Part shown: positions 2,242 through 17,509 of the stretch, in pieces | Layout of the letters: the number at the start of each line of letters is the position of its first letter | How positions within the stretch are numbered: position 1 is the first letter of the stretch | DNA from: Escherichia coli | GTDB taxonomy: Bacteria > Pseudomonadota > Gammaproteobacteria > Enterobacterales > Enterobacteriaceae | Assembly (NCBI RefSeq): GCF_017348835.2 | Contig: NZ_CP071375.1 | Strand: one strand, 5' to 3' | DNA length: 64,000 nt | Made by a program: the position numbers and the translations under genes | Notes under the pieces: model-generated | Database searches by the model: none | The model's input: only the letters and a program-made list of their open reading frames with translations | Told to the model about the DNA's origin: nothing

Positions 2242-3199
2242 AGCACTACTGAACGCGGGACGTCAGACGTTAATGCTGGAGTTGCAGGAAGCAAGCCGCT
2301 TACCGGAACGTCTGGGCGATGATTTTGTTCGCGCCGCCAATATCATCCTGCACTGCGAAGGCAAAGTGGTGGTTTCGGGAATTGGCAAATCGGGCCACAT
2401 TGGTAAGAAAATCGCCGCAACGCTTGCCAGTACTGGCACACCGGCTTTTTTTGTCCATCCGGCAGAAGCACTGCACGGCGATCTGGGGATGATCGAAAGC
2501 CGCGATGTGATGCTGTTTATCTCTTACTCCGGTGGCGCGAAGGAACTGGATCTGATTATTCCGCGTCTGGAAGACAAATCTATCGCGCTGCTGGCAATGA
2601 CAGGAAAACCGACGTCACCGCTGGGCCTGGCAGCGAAAGCGGTACTGGATATTTCGGTAGAACGCGAAGCCTGTCCGATGCATCTTGCGCCGACCTCGAG
2701 CACCGTCAATACCCTGATGATGGGCGACGCGCTGGCGATGGCAGTCATGCAGGCGCGCGGTTTTAATGAAGAAGATTTTGCCCGTTCACATCCAGCTGGG
2801 GCACTGGGCGCTCGCTTGCTGAACAAAGTGCATCATCTGATGCGCCGTGATGACGCCATCCCGCAGGTGGCGGTAAATGCCAGTGTAATGGACGCGATGC
2901 TGGAACTCAGCCGCACCGGTCTGGGGCTGGTGGCGGTATGTGACGCTCAACAACAGGTACAAGGCGTCTTTACCGACGGCGATTTACGTCGCTGGCTGGT
3001 TGGCGGCGGCGCACTCACCACGCCAGTTAATGAAGCGATGACGACAGGCGGCACCACATTACAGGCGCAAAGTCGCGCCATCGACGCCAAAGAGATCCTG
3101 ATGAAGCGCAAAATCACTGCCGCACCGGTGGTGGATGAAAACGGCAAACTCACCGGAGCAATTAACCTGCAGGATTTCTATCAGGCCGGGATTATTTAA
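2234..3199 (+). CDS. gutQ: D-arabinose-5-phosphate isomerase (SIS + tandem CBS domains)
   Basis: 321-aa ORF with a SIS domain ([11 protein letters not shown]) and C-terminal CBS pair; last gene of the srl cluster. Confidence 0.9.
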
Positions 3200-4710
3200 T
3201 CCTTCAATCCCAGACGTTTCGCCAACCGATGCAGGTTGGCGACGTCAGTTTCCAGCATTCGCGCGCAGGCAGCCCAGTTGTGATGATTTTGTGCCAGTGC
3301 CTGACGAATAGTTTCACGCTGGAACGCTTCTGTCGCTTCACGCAGGTTTTGCTTAACAACGGGCACCGCCGCCGCTTCTGGCGGCGGTAACGTCACCTCA
3401 GGAAAAGCAAAATGTTGCGCCTCAAGAATCACTTCATCGCCGTTGCGGGTGGCTCTCGCCAACACTACCGCCCGATGAATAGCATGTTCCAGTTCGCGCA
3501 CGTTCCCCGGAAAACGATAGTGTTGCAGTAAATTTCGCGCTCCGGCACTTAATACCACGCGGGAGAGCCCCAGCCGCAAACGACACTGCTCGCAGAAATA
3601 CCCCGCCAGCAGAATGACATCATCGCCCCGCTCACGCAGCGGCGGCACCGAAAGTGGAAACACGCTCAGGCGGTGGAACAAGTCAGCGCGAAATCGCCCT
3701 GCCAGCACCTCTTCGCGTAAATCGCGGTTAGTCGCCGCCAGCACGCGCACATCGACCCGCAAACTACGGTCATCGCCAACGCGCTGAATATCGCCATACT
3801 GCAACACCCTCAGCAGCTTGGCCTGCAATGCCAACGACAACTCGCCGATCTCATCGAGAAACAGCGTGCCGTTATCCGCCATTTCAAACTTCCCACTGCG
3901 GTTACTGATAGCGCCAGTAAACGCTCCTTTCACATGCCCGAACAACTCACTTTCCGCCACACTTTCCGGCAGTGCGGCACAGTTGAGATAGACCAGCGGA
4001 TTCACCGCCCTTGGCGAGGCTTCATGAATCGCTTTCGCCACCAGCTCCTTACCGGTTCCCGTCTCACCGCTGATTAAGACGTTGAGATCGGACGCCGCCA
4101 CAATCTCAATCTCTTTTTTCAATTGCGTCATGCCTGGCGATAAGCCAATCATCTGCGTCTGTTTCACCGCTTCAAATGGAGCGGCATCGCCCGGCAGCAT
4201 ATTCTGGCTTTCCAGTTGCTCAATCAGCAACGCATTGCTTAACGCTCCCGCCGCCAGCGCAGCAATCAGCCGTAACTCTTCATCGCTGAAAACATCGAAC
4301 TGATCGGGCTGCATCCCGTCGAGCGTCAATGCGCCAATCAGGTTTTGCCCGGCAAACAACGGCAGACCAACGCAGGCGTGAACCTTCAGACTCTCCTGCC
4401 CTGGAATCAAACCGTCATAGGGATCGGGCAATTCGCTGTCTGCGGGAAAGCGCACCACGTCCCCGGCGCGGGCAATCGCTTCCAGCCGTGGATGACCTTC
4501 CAGCGCAAAGCGTCTACCGAGTACATCCTTCGCCAGCCCGTCGATGGCAAGCGGAATAAACTGCCGCGAGTCGTAACGTAGCAACGCAGACGCATCGCAC
4601 TCCAGCACCTGACGCAGCGTGGTGATCAGGCGCTGAAAACGATCCTGATGACCAATCCCACGCTGCAATTCGATGGCGATATTCGCCAGCACATCAACGG
4701 AAAAACTCAT
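3196..4710 (-). CDS. norR: sigma54-dependent nitric-oxide-responsive transcriptional activator
   Basis: 504 aa from MSFSVDV...; GAF domain, AAA+ sigma54-interaction domain ([14 protein letters not shown]) and C-terminal HTH; divergent from norV. The listed ORF starts 25 codons upstream at an earlier Met. Confidence 0.9.
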
Positions 4711-4722
4711 CTTTGCCTCACT

Positions 4723-4778
4723 GTCAATTTGACTATAGATATTGTCATATCGACCATTTGATTGATAGTCATTTTGAC
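4723..4778. promoter_or_regulatory. three NorR-type operator sites (GT-N7-AC) in the norR-norV intergenic region
   Basis: gtcaatttgac (4723-4733), gtcatatcgac (4744-4754) and gtcattttgac (4768-4778) are read directly; the GT-N7-AC pattern is the established NorR enhancer motif. Confidence 0.6.
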
Positions 4779-4833
4779 TACTCATTAATGAGCATAATTT
4801 TATTTATAGAGTAAAAACAATCAGATAAAAAAC

Positions 4834-4849
4834 TGGCACGCAATCTGCA
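4834..4849 (+). promoter_or_regulatory. sigma54 (-24/-12) promoter of norVW
   Basis: TGGCAC-gcaat-CTGCA fits TGGCAC-N5-TTGCW, about 50 bp upstream of the norV ATG and downstream of the NorR sites. Confidence 0.6.
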
Positions 4850-4896
4850 ATTAACAAGACATCTTTTTAGAACACGCTGAATAAATTGAGGTTGCT

Positions 4897-6336
4897 ATGT
4901 CTATTGTGGTGAAAAATAACATTCATTGGGTTGGTCAACGTGACTGGGAAGTGCGTGATTTTCACGGTACAGAATATAAAACGCTGCGCGGCAGCAGCTA
5001 CAACAGCTACCTCATCCGCGAAGAAAAAAACGCGCTGATCGACACCGTCGACCATAAATTCAGCCGCGAATTTGTGCAGAACCTGCGTAATGAAATCGAT
5101 CTGGCGGATATCGATTACATCGTGATTAACCATGCAGAAGAGGACCACGCCGGGGCGCTGACCGAACTGATGGCACAAATTCCCGATACGCCGATCTACT
5201 GTACAGCCAACGCTATCGACTCGATAAATGGTCATCACCATCATCCGGAGTGGAATTTTAATGTGGTGAAAACTGGCGACACGCTGGATATCGGCAACGG
5301 CAAACAGCTCATTTTTGTCGAAACACCAATGCTGCACTGGCCGGACAGCATGATGACTTACCTGACAGGCGACGCGGTGCTGTTCAGTAACGATGCTTTC
5401 GGTCAGCACTACTGCGACGAGCATCTGTTCAACGATGAAGTGGATCAGACGGAGCTTTTCGAGCAGTGCCAGCGTTACTACGCCAATATCCTGACGCCGT
5501 TCAGCCGCCTGGTAACGCCGAAAATTACCGAGATCCTGGGCTTTAACTTACCAGTCGATATGATAGCGACCTCCCACGGCGTGGTCTGGCGCGATAACCC
5601 GACGCAAATTGTCGAGCTGTACCTGAAGTGGGCCGCTGATTATCAGGAAGACAGAATCACCATTTTCTACGACACCATGTCGAATAACACCCGCATGATG
5701 GCTGACGCTATCGCCCAGGGGATTGCGGAAACCGACCCACGCGTGGCGGTGAAAATTTTCAACGTCGCCCGAAGCGATAAAAACGAAATCCTGACCAATG
5801 TCTTCCGCTCAAAAGGCGTGCTGGTCGGCACTTCGACGATGAATAACGTGATGATGCCGAAAATCGCCGGGCTGGTGGAGGAGATGACCGGATTACGCTT
5901 CCGTAACAAACGCGCCAGTGCTTTCGGCTCTCACGGCTGGAGCGGCGGTGCGGTGGATCGTCTTTCCACGCGCCTGCAGGATGCGGGTTTCGAAATGTCG
6001 CTTAGCCTGAAAGCGAAATGGCGACCAGACCAGGACGCTCTGGAGTTATGCCGTGAACACGGTCGCGAAATCGCCCGTCAGTGGGCGCTCGCGCCGCTGC
6101 CGCAGAGCACGGTGAATACGGTAGTTAAAGAAGAAACCTCTGCCACCACGACGGCTGACCTCGGCCCACGGATGCAGTGCAGCGTCTGCCAGTGGATTTA
6201 CGATCCGGCAAAAGGCGAGCCAATGCAGGACGTTGCGCCAGGAACGCCGTGGAGTGAAGTCCCGGATAACTTCCTGTGCCCGGAATGCTCCCTCGGCAAA
6301 GACGTCTTTGACGAACTGGCATCGGAGGCAAAATGA
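4897..6336 (+). CDS. norV: anaerobic nitric oxide reductase flavorubredoxin
   Basis: 479-aa ORF with a metallo-beta-lactamase-like di-iron domain, a flavodoxin domain and a C-terminal rubredoxin CxxC...CxxC; appears full-length. Confidence 0.93.
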
Positions 6337-11944: not shown

Positions 11945-14835
<2,891 letters not shown>

Positions 14836-14841
14836 GCAACC

Positions 14842-14923
14842 GTGCCGGATGCGGCGTGAACGCCTTATCCGGCCTACATGTCGCACGAACTATGCAGGCC
14901 CGATAAGCACTGCGCATCGGGCA
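14842..14923. repeat. REP element pair
   Basis: gtgccggatgcggcgtgaacgccttatccggcctac and gcaggcccgataagcactgcgcatcgggc palindromic units between ascB and the inserted genes. Confidence 0.55.
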
Positions 14924-14948
14924 ATCTGGAGTTTGGCATCAGTCAAAA

Positions 14949-15368
14949 TCAAAGAAACCATTCCGGCTTAACGCCAAATCGGGCTGAAAGTGCCTTAATG
15001 TGGGATATTGTCAGGGATCGTTGTCCAGACAAAATCTGACTAACCAGGGATTTAGAGCCGATTTCGTTCTTCAAATCCGCATAGGTCAGATTATGTTGAT
15101 CAATCAACGTGCGAAGTAACGCCACGCCAACCGGCATTGCCGCAACGGCTTTGTCGAACTCTGCAAACTTTTCGTTGTTGTTTTCATACTCTGCAATGCG
15201 GCTCGCCAGAAAGTCGATAAGTGGATTGGTGTCATCTTCTTCAATCAAATATTCGACCAGTTCCAGTGCTTCACGATAATCATCTTCTGAGTCACTGCCT
15301 CCCAGAAAGGGGACTGCATTGACCAGTTCTCTTGTTGCTTTAACAGCGCGTGCAGCATTAGCAGTCAT
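14949..15368 (-). CDS. HigA-like antitoxin (XRE-family HTH)
   Basis: 139-aa ORF with a C-terminal XRE-type HTH (LTYADLKNEIGSKSLVSQILSGQRSLTISHIKALSARFGV); 4-nt overlap with the upstream toxin-like ORF; resembles chromosomal HigA but sits at a different locus. Confidence 0.75.
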   Translation of the reverse strand: MTANAARAVKATRELVNAVPFLGGSDSEDDYREALELVEYLIEEDDTNPLIDFLASRIAEYENNNEKFAEFDKAVAAMPVGVALLRTLIDQHNLTYADLKNEIGSKSLVSQILSGQRSLTISHIKALSARFGVKPEWFL

Positions 15369-15676
15369 TCTTTGTTCTCTCTGTAGTAACGTGTCAGTTT
15401 GTCATACTCTGCGTGATTCGTTATGTGCTTCACAAAGAACCGCTTATTAACAAAGTTTATGTAGGCAATAACCCTAAGATTGTTCCCGCCGACATCCAGA
15501 ACGTACCATTTGTTGCGATATTTAAAATTGTCGAGGTTGGGAAACGCCGTTCGCATTTCTTCTGGCGTAGAAAAATCCGTTTCCTTAATAACCCGATACA
15601 ATGCCTGAAGAGCCAGAGCGTCGTTAGGATATTTACGCGCAGACTCTTCAAATGGCACTTTAGAAATGATGTGCAT
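15365..15676 (-). CDS. HigB-like (RelE/ParE superfamily) toxin
   Basis: 103-aa basic ORF upstream of, and translationally coupled to, the HTH antitoxin; contains a FPxLDNFKY...VGGN.LRV motif as in HigB-type toxins; toxin-first order typical of HigBA. Confidence 0.7.
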   Translation of the reverse strand: MHIISKVPFEESARKYPNDALALQALYRVIKETDFSTPEEMRTAFPNLDNFKYRNKWYVLDVGGNNLRVIAYINFVNKRFFVKHITNHAEYDKLTRYYRENKE

Positions 15677-15837
15677 TTTTAAGTTTTAACTTCCTTATAG
15701 TAAGTAAACAGCCACATCTGCGAGTTCTATCCTCATGTGTTCGGAAACTATAGCTCATCAAATCCAAGTTCACAATATGTAAACACTTGCGCGTGATATA
15801 ATTACCCCCAAAATCCTCATAACCACTCTGCAAAAAG

Positions 15838-16611
15838 TCAGTTCTGATTCACCCCATCAAGCACATCCCCCTTTATCAAGCAACGCTGCGTCAGCGACAG
15901 ATCTTCCGTTTGTGTGTCGCGCCCGGCGATGGGTTTGAGGACGAGTTTACGGTTGGGGGTATAAGTAAAGCGCGTGAGCGCGGGATAGCTTAACTTGCCA
16001 AACCAGCCGTGAACACGCTGCCATTTGGCGTCTTTTACCTGATACAGACTGGTTATCCAGTAACCAGAATTAAACTGCATATCCAGCAATTGCGTGTGAC
16101 CATTGCCTTGTAAATCCAGCAAATCATCTACGCCAGTTTTGCTTGCAGTGTAGAATCCCCAGGGTTCAAAGACACAGGGACGGCCTTCGTGCGTGAACGT
16201 CATGAGGATTAAATGTGCATAGGGCGCCAGACCATTACCGGCACTTGGCAACCAGATAACCAGATCCTGAATGCCGTTACGATCCAGATCGGCGCGATAG
16301 AGCTGCCCTTTGCCCGCCATATTTGCCAGCAACCCCACTGGCACCGTCCAGGATTTACCCGCGCGGTCTTTAGCGGTTAATTGCCAGTAATCCTCTTCAT
16401 TTGGCATCTTCTCAAGCGTCACGCCAGCAACGCCGATTTTTCTAAAATGCCAAGTTTGCTCGGTATAATAAGGCATGGTCAGGAGAGGTTTCAGCGCCCG
16501 CTTTTGCGCATATTCGCTGCCACTCATTGGCAGATATTCGGTAAAGCTGGTGGCCTGTGCAGACTGCACTAAGCTCAATAAAAAAGCGCACATCCCTGTT
16601 CTGATGTTCAA
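15838..16611 (-). CDS. hypothetical secreted protein with two D-x-D-x-N-G-x-x-D-like motifs
   Basis: 257-aa ORF with a predicted Sec signal peptide (MNIRTGMCAFLLSLVQSAQA); DLDRNGIQDLVIW and DLQGNGHTQLLD resemble FG-GAP/VCBS-type calcium-binding repeats. No family I can name with confidence. Confidence 0.55.
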   Translation of the reverse strand: MNIRTGMCAFLLSLVQSAQATSFTEYLPMSGSEYAQKRALKPLLTMPYYTEQTWHFRKIGVAGVTLEKMPNEEDYWQLTAKDRAGKSWTVPVGLLANMAGKGQLYRADLDRNGIQDLVIWLPSAGNGLAPYAHLILMTFTHEGRPCVFEPWGFYTASKTGVDDLLDLQGNGHTQLLDMQFNSGYWITSLYQVKDAKWQRVHGWFGKLSYPALTRFTYTPNRKLVLKPIAGRDTQTEDLSLTQRCLIKGDVLDGVNQN

Positions 16612-16635
16612 TTCCCTGAATTCCCTGATGAAGAA

Positions 16636-17106
16636 TTATTCTTCTTCCACCGCTAACTGCGCAAATCCGCCGTTCCCTTCCCAGCCTTCCAGTCGTTGAT
16701 AAACGGTTTCTACCGCATCTTTAATCGGCTGGGTCATTGGGTAGTAAAAGCCGACGATATCCGGCTGGATGCCGAGAAAAATCACCTCGCCAATATCTTC
16801 TTTCAACTGGTCGATAAGATAGTTCAGCGGCATGTTATGGGTAGTCATCATAAACATTTCGGCGATATCATCCGGATCGATGATGCGGATCTCGCCGGGG
16901 TTTAGCCCCATATCCGTGGCGTCGACAATCAGCAGTCGTGTCGGGCGCAGTTCGCGGATAGCGACAATGTCGTTTTCCGGTGCGCTACCGCCGTCAATCA
17001 CCACCCAGTTGCCTTTCGGCGCGGCGGCGCACTTTTCCGCCAGCAGCGGACCTGCGCCATCATCGCCCATCATGCTATTGCCAACACAGAGTAAAACGTC
17101 AGTCAC
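16636..17106 (-). CDS. hycI: hydrogenase 3 large-subunit maturation endopeptidase
   Basis: 156-aa ORF, last gene of the hyc operon; HycI/HybD-type protease signature. Confidence 0.9.
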   Translation of the reverse strand: MTDVLLCVGNSMMGDDGAGPLLAEKCAAAPKGNWVVIDGGSAPENDIVAIRELRPTRLLIVDATDMGLNPGEIRIIDPDDIAEMFMMTTHNMPLNYLIDQLKEDIGEVIFLGIQPDIVGFYYPMTQPIKDAVETVYQRLEGWEGNGGFAQLAVEEE

Positions 17107-17509
17107 GCAGTCTCCTCACCATCAAATAGATGGCGTTTTCCTGATGAATATCATGCAGCATACTTAACAGCATTGTACTCCATTCCTGCTGCTGCGAAGT
17201 TTGCGCTGCCCGGGCTTTATCGAATGCATTGGCCAGCATCGGCACATGGTTAATGTCGATGACGATCTCACCGTACTTCGGTACGCCTTCCATTTTGCGG
17301 CGGGCTTCGCTGCCCGCCTCCAGAGTGGCAATCCATGCCAGATATTCATCCCACGGGCAGGTGAGCGCCGCTTCCAGGCAATCGATAACCCCAAGGTGGT
17401 GACCAATCGCCAGGCTGTAATAGACCACCTGCTGCGCCTCGGCGGGCGTGGCATCGTTCTCATCAATAAATTTACGGCTCAGTTGACTGAACACCACCTT
17501 TTCACTCAT
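17099..17509 (-). CDS. hycH: formate hydrogenlyase maturation protein
   Basis: 136-aa ORF between hycG and hycI, overlapping both. Confidence 0.88.

What the first reader, a model, noticed from the sequence alone, without database searches (positions are those of the whole stretch)
14949..15676. HigB/HigA-like toxin-antitoxin pair in a strain-specific insertion between ascB and hycI
K-12 has ascB directly followed by hycI. Here two overlapping minus-strand genes are inserted: a 103-aa basic RelE/ParE-fold toxin candidate with HigB-like motifs upstream of a 139-aa protein with a C-terminal XRE-type HTH. Toxin-first order and the 4-nt overlap are typical of HigBA. It resembles, but is not at the locus of, the chromosomal higBA, so it is a second HigBA-type module with unknown target and regulation.
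Basis: partly seen in the sequence, partly recalled or inferred. Interest (0 to 1): 0.5.

Follow-up and report, generated by a model that had tools for sequence, protein, structure and literature searches.

The report
SehAB-like HigB/HigA toxin-antitoxin cassette
This is a real but fairly ordinary two-gene toxin-antitoxin cassette, already labelled "HigB family toxin" in public E. coli genomes; its closest studied relative is Salmonella SehAB, so the toxin may block RNase III rather than cut mRNA.

Summary
Two minus-strand genes overlap by ATGA: a basic 103-aa toxin (15365-15676) and an acidic 139-aa antitoxin (14949-15368). The toxin matches Pfam HigB_toxin PF09907. The antitoxin aligns full-length to K-12 HigA (PDB 5IFG) and has a C-terminal HTH.

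RefSeq already annotates the pair as a HigB-family toxin-antitoxin. The closest characterised toxin is Salmonella SehA (58% identity), not K-12 HigB (40%). All eight residues reported as essential for SehA are kept; K-12 HigB keeps four. SehA was reported in 2026 to inhibit RNase III rather than cleave mRNA.

A 17-bp palindrome, GTTTACATATTGTGAAC (15768-15784), overlaps the -35 box and recurs upstream of homologues in other genera. It is the probable operator.

The cassette (14943-15837, 43% GC) is not strain-specific. Of 5,426 complete E. coli genomes, 1,091 carry both genes, 1,417 carry the antitoxin alone and none carries the toxin alone. E. albertii has it at the same site. The source strain (PE164) lacks the K-12 higBA, so this is not a "second" module.

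Verdict: a new member of a known kind, of modest interest.

The parts
15365..15676 (-). Toxin gene. 103 aa, pI 9.3, HigB family (Pfam PF09907), SehA-like branch.
   Evidence: ORF. PF09907 E 1.8e-23. PDB 5IFG_A E 2.6e-22. 58% identity to SehA and 40% to K-12 HigB. Keeps Y53, D61, H88, Y91, K93, T95, Y97, Y98. RefSeq product is 'type II toxin-antitoxin system HigB family toxin'.
14949..15368 (-). Antitoxin gene. 139 aa, pI 4.7, HigA-type: N-terminal toxin-binding/dimerisation domain plus C-terminal XRE HTH.
   Evidence: ORF. HTH_3 at residues 85-138. PDB 5IFG_B HigA E 2.5e-35 over residues 9-138. 46% identity to K-12 HigA and 45% to SehB. Protein WP_000126294.1 is identical in five E. coli lineages, with 7-16 synonymous and 0 non-synonymous differences.
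15365..15368 (-). ATGA overlap: antitoxin start codon overlaps the toxin stop codon (translational coupling).
   Evidence: Read directly from the sequence.
15768..15784 (.). 17-bp palindrome GTTTACATATTGTGAAC (7-3-7), the probable antitoxin operator. It overlaps the -35 box.
   Evidence: Only match to GTTYACANNNTGTRAAC in 64 kb, against 0.01 expected. The same motif lies upstream of the toxin in E. albertii, a second E. coli promoter variant and about 17 loci of other genera, usually in two copies. K-12 higBA and sehAB carry palindromes of the same 7-3-7 form with different central bases.
15747..15775 (-). Sigma-70-like promoter: TTGTGA (15775-15770), 17-nt spacer, TATAGT (15752-15747).
   Evidence: Consensus scan, 9 of 12 matches. 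The -10 and the palindrome are conserved in E. albertii while flanking bases vary. Function is inferred, not shown.
15693..15709 (-). Degenerate remnant of a second operator (GTTTACTTACTATAAGG, 4 mismatches). Relatives have an intact second palindrome just after the -10.
15690..15695 (-). Shine-Dalgarno AGGAAG of the toxin gene. It lies 13 nt from the ATG because of an 8-nt insertion relative to the other E. coli promoter variant and other genera, where the spacing is 5 nt.
   Evidence: Sequence comparison of upstream regions.
14943..15837 (.). Extent of the toxin-antitoxin cassette, from the ascB-side REP element to the stop codon of the neighbouring 257-aa gene. GC is 42.8%, against 51-55% in the flanks.
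   Evidence: The K-12 homology break is at 14942. K-12 retains a remnant of the 3' end of the 257-aa gene directly next to that break. GC values. Salmonella has the 257-aa gene without the cassette.

Best explanation
This is a chromosomal type II toxin-antitoxin cassette of the HigB (PF09907) / HigA type, on the branch that contains Salmonella SehAB.

How it most likely works. One promoter (TTGTGA-17-TATAGT) drives toxin then antitoxin, coupled by an ATGA overlap. The acidic antitoxin binds the toxin through its N-terminal domain. As a dimer, it binds the palindrome GTTTACATATTGTGAAC over the -35 box through its C-terminal HTH and represses the operon. When free, the toxin stops growth by shutting down translation.

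Most likely target. [quoted passage not shown]

Shown here: gene anatomy, family membership, homology to solved HigB/HigA, conservation of the SehA-critical residues, the conserved palindrome, and the population pattern.

Inferred: toxicity, neutralisation, repression, and the RNase III target.
For: Family and architecture: PF09907 and HTH_3. Full-length matches to PDB 5IFG HigB and HigA. Toxin-first order with ATGA overlap.

SehA branch: 58% identity to SehA (STM4031), against 40% to K-12 HigB; SehA and HigB are 41% identical to each other. All eight residues whose alanine substitution abolishes SehA toxicity are present (Y53, D61, H88, Y91, K93, T95, Y97, Y98; PMC12817084). K-12 HigB has only Y53, H88, Y91 and T95. 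H88, Y91, K/R93 and Y98 are near-invariant in 57 relatives.

SehA mechanism: the paper reports no RNase activity, RNase III-dependent toxicity, binding to the dsRBD and in-vitro inhibition of RNase III.

Operator: a unique palindrome in the window, conserved across genera at the -35 and after the -10.

Population evidence for an active toxin: 1,091 genomes have both genes, 1,417 have the antitoxin only and 0 have the toxin only. The antitoxin is under strong purifying selection.
Against: No experiment exists on this E. coli pair.

The RNase III mechanism rests on one 2026 study. Its in-vitro RNase test used toxin without ribosomes, which would miss a ribosome-dependent nuclease.

K-12 HigB, from the same Pfam family, is annotated and accepted as a ribosome-dependent mRNA interferase (Christensen-Dalsgaard et al. 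2010, from my own knowledge). Residues that could serve RelE-type catalysis (K52, K56, R68, H88, Y91) are also conserved.

The antitoxin is no closer to SehB (45%) than to HigA (46%).

The window has only one intact operator and a poorly spaced Shine-Dalgarno sequence, so expression could be low.

The antitoxin-only genomes trace to only a few deletion events, so the toxin/antitoxin asymmetry rests on few independent events.
Confidence: 0.5

Rival explanations
1. Same toxin-antitoxin module and same regulation, but the toxin is a ribosome-dependent mRNA endonuclease like E. coli K-12 HigB (YgjN). It would enter the ribosomal A site and cleave translated mRNAs.
For: The toxin belongs to the same Pfam family and matches solved K-12 HigB over its full length. 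K-12 HigB is annotated 'ribosome-dependent mRNA interferase toxin'. PF09907 is listed as ribosome-dependent mRNA degradation in a 2025 survey (PMC11980606). Basic and aromatic residues invariant across both branches (K56, R68, H88, Y91, R99) could form a RelE-type active site. The SehA study did not test cleavage on ribosomes.
Against: The toxin is only 40% identical to K-12 HigB, against 58% to SehA. K-12 HigB is the outlier at D61N, H84E, K93F, Y97V and Y98H. SehA toxicity was reported to depend on RNase III, and SehA-induced RNA ends mapped to rRNA leaders rather than coding regions.
Confidence: 0.33
2. The biological role is phage defence or exclusion by abortive infection. Infection would disturb the toxin:antitoxin balance and free the toxin. 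This is compatible with either molecular target.
For: The toxin matches the PADLOC model PD-Lambda-2_A (E 1.5e-15). The antitoxin matches the N-terminal part of PD-Lambda-2_B (E 2.4e-14). PD-lambda-2 is a validated E. coli defence system with a HigB-like component (PMC9519451). Close homologues sit in the immunity regions of Salmonella prophages (69% identity) and in Cronobacter phage JK004 (78% identity). More than 1,000 plasmids carry relatives.
Against: PD-lambda-2 needs three genes. Its B protein carries a C-terminal peptidase domain that is absent here (only positions 9-115 of 402 match), and there is no third gene. The window locus lies among housekeeping genes (asc, hyc), not in a defence island or prophage. 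No phage data exist.
Confidence: 0.15
3. The module is a decaying selfish element, and the antitoxin is the part that matters to the host. The antitoxin would act as a stand-alone regulator, or as anti-addiction immunity against related toxins arriving on plasmids and prophages. The toxin in this strain would be weakly expressed or on its way to loss.
For: 1,417 of 2,508 antitoxin-carrying genomes, including ST131, have lost the toxin. At least three different deletions remove the toxin and its promoter but spare the antitoxin. The antitoxin protein is identical across lineages. Two toxin-less strains that share one deletion differ by 7 synonymous and 0 non-synonymous changes. The toxin evolves more freely (dN/dS up to 0.40). 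The window has a single operator and a 13-nt Shine-Dalgarno spacing. Relatives 60-80% identical are common on enterobacterial plasmids.
Against: The toxin ORF in the window is intact and keeps every family-invariant residue. The toxin's dN/dS against E. albertii is 0.04. No genome has the toxin alone, which fits a toxin that is still lethal when unguarded.
Confidence: 0.12

Closest known systems
Salmonella enterica SehA/SehB (STM4031/STM4030), a HigB-like toxin-antitoxin pair
   Same: Both toxins are 103 aa and 58% identical, with no gaps in the alignment. All eight SehA-critical residues are shared, including the C-terminal helix motif HAEYDKLTxYYR. Both have toxin-first order and a HigA-type antitoxin with a C-terminal HTH (45% identity). 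Both have 7-3-7 palindromic operators at the promoter.
   Different: The chromosomal locus differs: near fdoHI/fdhE in Salmonella, between ascB and hycI here. The operator half-site is GTTTACA rather than GTTTTCA. The antitoxin is 139 aa rather than 142, and is equally distant from SehB and HigA. The window has one intact operator instead of two. RNase III inhibition has not been tested for this protein.
E. coli K-12 HigB/HigA (YgjN/YgjM; PDB 5IFG, 6KML)
   Same: Same Pfam family, same lengths (103/139 against 104/138), same gene order and 4-nt overlap. Full-length homology at 40% and 46% identity. The operator has the same form, GTTGCCA-N3-TGGCAAC.
   Different: The locus differs (fadH-rlmG). 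K-12 HigB has only four of the eight SehA-critical residues. The operator's central bases differ, so cross-regulation is unlikely. The source strain PE164 lacks this module altogether.
PD-lambda-2 anti-phage system (Vassallo et al. 2022)
   Same: The A component is HigB-like and matches this toxin (E 1.5e-15). The N-terminal HigA-like part of the B component matches this antitoxin.
   Different: PD-lambda-2 has three genes. [quoted passage not shown] C is required for defence. None of this is present here.
Proteus vulgaris Rts1 HigB/HigA (the original 'Hig' system)
   Same: Toxin-first order, RelE-superfamily toxin, XRE-HTH antitoxin.
   Different: It belongs to a different Pfam family (PF05015, HigB-like) and is only about 25% identical to SehA. 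Its antitoxin has the HTH at the N-terminus (PMC7160566).

Membership tests
Type II toxin-antitoxin module, HigB (PF09907) / HigA type | Toxin belongs to the HigB_toxin family with a RelE-like fold | tested here: met
   PF09907 E 1.8e-23. phmmer to solved HigB 5IFG_A E 2.6e-22 over residues 1-100.
Type II toxin-antitoxin module, HigB (PF09907) / HigA type | Adjacent antitoxin with a HigA architecture: N-terminal toxin-binding domain plus C-terminal XRE HTH | tested here: met
   HTH_3 at residues 85-138. Aligns to HigA 5IFG_B over residues 9-138, E 2.5e-35.
Type II toxin-antitoxin module, HigB (PF09907) / HigA type | Toxin gene upstream of the antitoxin gene in one operon, with coupled or overlapping genes | tested here: met
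   Same strand, ATGA overlap at 15365-15368.
Type II toxin-antitoxin module, HigB (PF09907) / HigA type | Palindromic operator in its own promoter for autorepression | tested here: met
   At sequence level only. The 17-bp palindrome over the -35 is unique in the window and conserved across genera. Binding was not tested.
Type II toxin-antitoxin module, HigB (PF09907) / HigA type | Toxin inhibits growth and the antitoxin neutralises it | not testable with these tools
   Indirect only: 0 toxin-only against 1,417 antitoxin-only genomes.
SehAB-type (RNase III-inhibiting HigB-like toxin) | Residues required for SehA toxicity (Y53, D61, H88, Y91, K93, T95, Y97, Y98) | tested here: met
   All eight are identical in the window toxin. 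K-12 HigB has four.
SehAB-type (RNase III-inhibiting HigB-like toxin) | Closer to SehA than to the mRNA-cleaving K-12 HigB | tested here: met
   Met for the toxin: 58% against 40% identity. Not met for the antitoxin: 45% against 46%.
SehAB-type (RNase III-inhibiting HigB-like toxin) | Binds the RNase III dsRBD, with toxicity dependent on rnc | not testable with these tools
   Needs pull-down and genetics. No complex-prediction tool was available.
K-12 HigB-type ribosome-dependent mRNA interferase | Translation-dependent cleavage of mRNA | not testable with these tools
   Family-level annotation only.
PD-lambda-2 defence system | B component with a C-terminal peptidase domain fused to the HigA-like HTH | tested here: not met
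   The antitoxin covers only positions 9-115 of the 402-position PD-Lambda-2_B profile. The protein is 139 aa.
PD-lambda-2 defence system | Third gene (P4-antitoxin-like) required for defence | tested here: not met
   Downstream of the antitoxin are a REP element and ascB. The upstream 257-aa gene has no PADLOC match.

The most novel reading that the evidence does not exclude
About a fifth of E. coli strains carry a SehA-type toxin that arrests growth by inhibiting RNase III rather than by cutting mRNA. A further quarter, including ST131, keep only its antitoxin. In those strains the antitoxin has lost its own promoter and operator to deletion, yet its protein sequence is held invariant by selection. 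That would point to a domesticated function, either as a transcription factor or as immunity against related toxins on incoming plasmids and prophages.
Probability: 0.25. Interest if true: 0.55.

Novelty: new member of a known kind. Interest (0 to 1): 0.3.

Why it matters
Taken alone, this is one more annotated HigB/HigA pair. Three things could make it useful.

First, it gives a natural E. coli counterpart of Salmonella SehAB. That allows a test in the best genetic background of whether the newly claimed RNase III-inhibition mechanism applies to most of the PF09907 family, with K-12 HigB as the exception.

Second, the three related palindromes differ only in their central bases (GTTgcCA, GTTttCA, GTTtaCA). 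Together they form a ready-made system for studying how HigA-type repressors keep paralogous modules insulated from each other.

Third, the antitoxin-only state is common in clinically important lineages and looks selected. That bears on whether chromosomal antitoxins act as anti-addiction devices.

Tried and rejected
**Searches that found nothing**
- NCBIfam gave no family for any of the three proteins.
- A literature search for ascB + hycI + toxin, and a search of E. coli toxin-antitoxin repertoire papers, found no description of this locus.
- Rfam over 14000-17500 found only a sub-threshold REP-derived naRNA4 match at 14830-14886.
- The repeat finder on the promoter missed the operator, because the arms are only 7 nt. 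It emerged from comparing upstream regions across genera.

**Leads that were corrected**
- I first took the Salmonella cluster P0032 (69% identity) to be SehA. Its context is a prophage immunity region. The true SehA (STM4031) came from a Salmonella Infantis contig whose notes give the LT2 locus tags.
- I considered PD-lambda-2 membership and rejected it: no peptidase domain and no third gene.
- I considered that the 257-aa gene belongs to the module and rejected it. It occurs without the toxin-antitoxin pair in Salmonella and with a different pair (ParDE) in Klebsiella spallanzanii, while the pair occurs without it in other genera and in some E. coli.

**The 257-aa protein**
- An AlphaFold model was confident only for residues ~30-160, and Foldseek against the PDB gave no significant hit.

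**Source caveat**
- The 2013 sehAB paper is retracted, so I did not rely on it.

Full report
**1. Observation**

The toxin is 15365..15676 (-), 103 aa. The antitoxin is 14949..15368 (-), 139 aa. Both start with ATG and share the overlap ATGA. The toxin is basic (pI 9.3) and the antitoxin acidic (pI 4.7).

K-12 MG1655 does have ascB directly followed by hycI. A BLAST of the window against K-12 shows that K-12 lacks window 14943-16614. That gap holds three genes, not two. Between the pair and hycI lies a 257-aa ORF (15838-16611; RefSeq calls it 251 aa from 16593).

**2. What the proteins are**

- The toxin matches Pfam HigB_toxin PF09907 (E 1.8e-23).
- The antitoxin has an HTH_3 domain at residues 85-138.
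- Against all PDB sequences, the best hits are E. coli K-12 / Shigella HigB (5IFG_A, E 2.6e-22, residues 1-100) and HigA (5IFG_B, E 2.5e-35, residues 9-138).
- Identity to the K-12 proteins, fetched from NC_000913, is 40% for the toxin and 46% for the antitoxin.
- RefSeq already annotates this locus as 'type II toxin-antitoxin system HigB family toxin' plus 'helix-turn-helix domain-containing protein', or in some genomes 'HigA family antitoxin'.

**3. Closest characterised relative**

A homologue search shows a tight clade of 103-aa toxins at 75-81% identity. It includes Leclercia, Yokenella, Mangrovibacter, Pantoea, Kluyvera, Citrobacter, Klebsiella aerogenes, Kosakonia and Cronobacter. More distant members are in Photorhabdus, Xenorhabdus, Vibrio, Marinobacter and Burkholderia.

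Relatives are also on more than 1,000 plasmids, 531 of them at 60-80% identity and mostly from Klebsiella. They occur in Cronobacter phage JK004 (78%) and in the immunity regions of Salmonella prophages (69%).

The genuine Salmonella SehA/SehB pair came from a Salmonella Infantis contig whose annotation notes give the LT2 tags STM4031 and STM4030 (translations).

| Comparison | Identity |
|---|---|
| Window toxin vs SehA | 58% (no gaps) |
| Window toxin vs K-12 HigB | 40% |
| SehA vs K-12 HigB | 41% |
| Window antitoxin vs SehB | 45% |
| Window antitoxin vs K-12 HigA | 46% |
| SehB vs K-12 HigA | 46% |

The toxin therefore belongs to the SehA branch. The three antitoxins are about equally distant from one another.

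**4. Why this matters for mechanism**

A 2026 paper (PMC12817084) reports the following for SehA:
- It has no detectable RNase activity.
- Its toxicity depends on RNase III.
- It binds the RNase III dsRNA-binding domain.
- It inhibits RNase III cleavage of the 16S leader in vitro.
- It causes pre-16S rRNA to accumulate and ribosome assembly to fall.

Alanine substitutions at Y53, D61, H88, Y91, K93, T95, Y97 and Y98 abolished toxicity. R54 and K56 were dispensable.

All eight critical residues are present at the same positions in the window toxin. K-12 HigB keeps only Y53, H88, Y91 and T95. In 57 relatives, H88, Y91, K/R93 and Y98 are near-invariant. D61 and Y53 were part of the search pattern, so their conservation in that set is biased.

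K-12 HigB is thus the outlier of the family at D61N, H84E, K93F, Y97V and Y98H.

There are caveats. The SehA mechanism rests on one study, and its RNase test lacked ribosomes. K-12 HigB is accepted as a ribosome-dependent mRNA interferase (annotation; family table in PMC11980606; Christensen-Dalsgaard et al. 2010, from my own knowledge). The earlier 2013 sehAB paper is retracted, and I did not use it.

I put the SehA-like target at about 0.5 and the K-12 HigB-like target at about 0.33.

**5. Regulation**

A sigma-70-like promoter lies upstream of the toxin: TTGTGA (15775-15770), a 17-nt spacer, then TATAGT (15752-15747).

Comparing 200 nt upstream of the toxin gene across loci from other genera revealed a conserved 17-bp palindrome, GTT(T/C)ACA-N3-TGT(A/G)AAC. 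It is usually present twice, once over the -35 and once immediately after the -10, in sequence that is otherwise unalignable.

The window has one perfect copy, GTTTACATATTGTGAAC, at 15784..15768. It overlaps the -35. It is the only match in 64 kb, against 0.01 expected by chance. E. albertii and a second E. coli promoter variant keep it exactly. The second site in the window is degenerate (15709..15693, 4 mismatches).

The characterised relatives carry palindromes of the same 7-3-7 form with different central bases:

| Module | Palindrome |
|---|---|
| K-12 higBA | GTTGCCA-ATC-TGGCAAC |
| sehAB | GTTTTCA-ACT-TGAAAAC |
| This cassette | GTTTACA-TAT-TGTGAAC |

This fits insulated autoregulation by each antitoxin. 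Binding itself is inferred, not shown.

The toxin's Shine-Dalgarno sequence (AGGAAG, 15695-15690) is 13 nt from the ATG. An 8-nt insertion accounts for this; in relatives the spacing is 5 nt. Toxin translation may therefore be weak here.

**6. Is it a strain-specific insertion?**

No. Counts across 5,426 complete E. coli genomes:

| State | Genomes |
|---|---|
| Antitoxin gene present | 2,508 |
| Both genes intact | 1,091 |
| Antitoxin only | 1,417 |
| Toxin only | 0 |
| Only the last 33 nt of the toxin gene kept (a subset of the antitoxin-only genomes) | 581 |

The combined query matches the same 2,508 genomes as the antitoxin alone, which is how the toxin-only count comes to zero. The locus is always single-copy and chromosomal. 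Carriers of the intact pair include Nissle 1917 and O111:H8. ST131 has the orphan antitoxin.

Several distinct deletions exist:
- TW10722 lacks 15404-15814, which covers the toxin and its promoter.
- N44 and AVS0578 lack about 15398-16433.
- NRZ88308 lacks the 257-aa gene and has a different leader.
- K-12 lacks everything.

E. albertii has hycI, the 257-aa gene, the toxin and the antitoxin in the same order. Salmonella has hycI and the 257-aa gene followed by hydN, with no toxin-antitoxin pair. Klebsiella spallanzanii has the 257-aa gene followed by a different pair, ParDE, plus SymE genes, before ascB.

K-12 retains a short remnant of both ends of the 257-aa gene directly next to the ascB REP element.

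So the 257-aa gene is ancestral. The mobile cassette is about 14943-15837, with 42.8% GC against 51-55% in the flanks. The site is a landing pad for toxin-antitoxin modules. Synonymous divergence of the cassette between E. coli and E. albertii (about 0.10) is much lower than that of the adjacent 257-aa gene (0.38). This suggests the cassette spread later, by transfer or recombination.

**7. Is it a 'second' HigBA?**

No. The window is 100% identical over 25 kb to strain PE164; the next distinct strains are at 98.2%. In PE164, rlmG is directly adjacent to fadH. BLAST shows that K-12 positions covering higA, higB and their promoter are cleanly absent.

The K-12-type higBA is itself variable: 2,825 genomes have at least 80% of it. 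In this strain, the ascB-hycI cassette is the only module of this family at the two loci.

**8. Evidence that the module is, or was, active**

The asymmetry of 0 toxin-only against 1,417 antitoxin-only genomes is what addiction logic predicts. It rests on only a few independent deletion events, so it is modest evidence.

The antitoxin protein (WP_000126294.1) is identical in five lineages. Between them there are 7-16 synonymous and 0 non-synonymous differences. This includes N44 against AVS0578, two toxin-less strains sharing the same deletion (7 synonymous, 0 non-synonymous). With about 98 synonymous sites out of 417 total, the chance of that result without selection is about 4e-5 by my own rough arithmetic, which ignores mutation bias.

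The orphan antitoxin therefore seems to be maintained even after losing its toxin, promoter and operator. I have no tested explanation for this. Anti-addiction against the many plasmid and prophage homologues, or a regulatory role, are both possible.

The toxin shows dN/dS from 0.04 to 0.40.

**9. Phage-defence angle**

PADLOC models PD-Lambda-2_A and PD-Lambda-2_B match the toxin (E 1.5e-15) and the N-terminal part of the antitoxin (E 2.4e-14). PD-lambda-2, however, is a three-gene system. [quoted passage not shown] Those defining features are absent here, so this is not a PD-lambda-2 system. The prophage and phage homologues keep a defence or exclusion role possible but untested.

**10. Verdict**

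The claims of 'strain-specific', 'second module' and 'unknown target' need correction.

This is a new, uncharacterised member of a known kind, already annotated automatically. Its interest is modest. What adds value is the link to SehA, and hence a possible RNase III target; the conserved operator family; and the widespread, apparently selected orphan antitoxin.

Noticed in passing
window 15838-16611 (-), RefSeq start 16593: A 251/257-aa protein with a signal peptide lies 24-42 nt downstream of hycI on the same strand. It has no Pfam, NCBIfam, PHROG or PADLOC match. Homologues are essentially confined to Escherichia, Salmonella (69-71%) and Klebsiella spallanzanii (62%), always right after hycI. 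K-12 has deleted it, so it has never been studied there. It carries FG-GAP-like 'DLDRNGIQDLV' and 'DDLLDLQGNG' motifs. The AlphaFold model is confident only for residues ~30-160, and there is no significant PDB fold match. It is highly polymorphic within E. coli (39 aa differences between PE164 and TW10722; pS 0.27). It could be an unrecognised last gene of the formate hydrogenlyase operon.
   Followed up: partly
E. coli loci L089, L091, L092 (equivalent to window 14949-15368): An orphan antitoxin is present in 1,417 of 5,426 genomes, including ST131. In these genomes the toxin, promoter and operator are deleted, so the gene can only be read through from the hyc side. The protein is nevertheless identical across lineages, with only synonymous changes.
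   Followed up: partly
L096 (Klebsiella spallanzanii), 2922-5314: At the equivalent position, between the 257-aa gene and ascB, this species carries a ParD/ParE pair flanked by two SymE-like genes. The site seems to be a hotspot for toxin-antitoxin integration.
   Followed up: no
L093 (PE164 record 648131-648242) compared with L002: The source strain lacks the K-12 higBA between fadH and rlmG; only a REP-containing 110-bp spacer remains. Across E. coli, the K-12 higBA is itself often truncated (2,825 genomes with at least 80% of it, out of 4,377 with any match).
   Followed up: yes
window 14830-14886: A REP element lies between ascB and the antitoxin stop codon. It gives a sub-threshold match to Rfam naRNA4 (41.9 bits against a gathering score of 59.5) and accounts for the dozens of BLAST places per genome.
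   Followed up: partly
L092 (E. coli AVS0578) 972-1409: In this strain the whole ascGFB operon is absent. A 145-aa hypothetical gene sits between hydN and the orphan antitoxin. E. albertii has a similar 142-aa gene there (L095 5237-5665).
   Followed up: no
L003-L005 (Salmonella prophages), 5001-5728: A 69%-identical toxin with a 139-aa antitoxin sits in lambdoid/P22-like prophage immunity regions next to Cro/CI-like genes. This suggests the cassette travels with phages.
   Followed up: no
window 15677-15697: There is an 8-nt insertion (TTAAAACTTAAAAATG against TTAAAATG in relatives) between the toxin's Shine-Dalgarno sequence and its start codon. It is shared with E. albertii and may lower toxin translation.
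   Followed up: no
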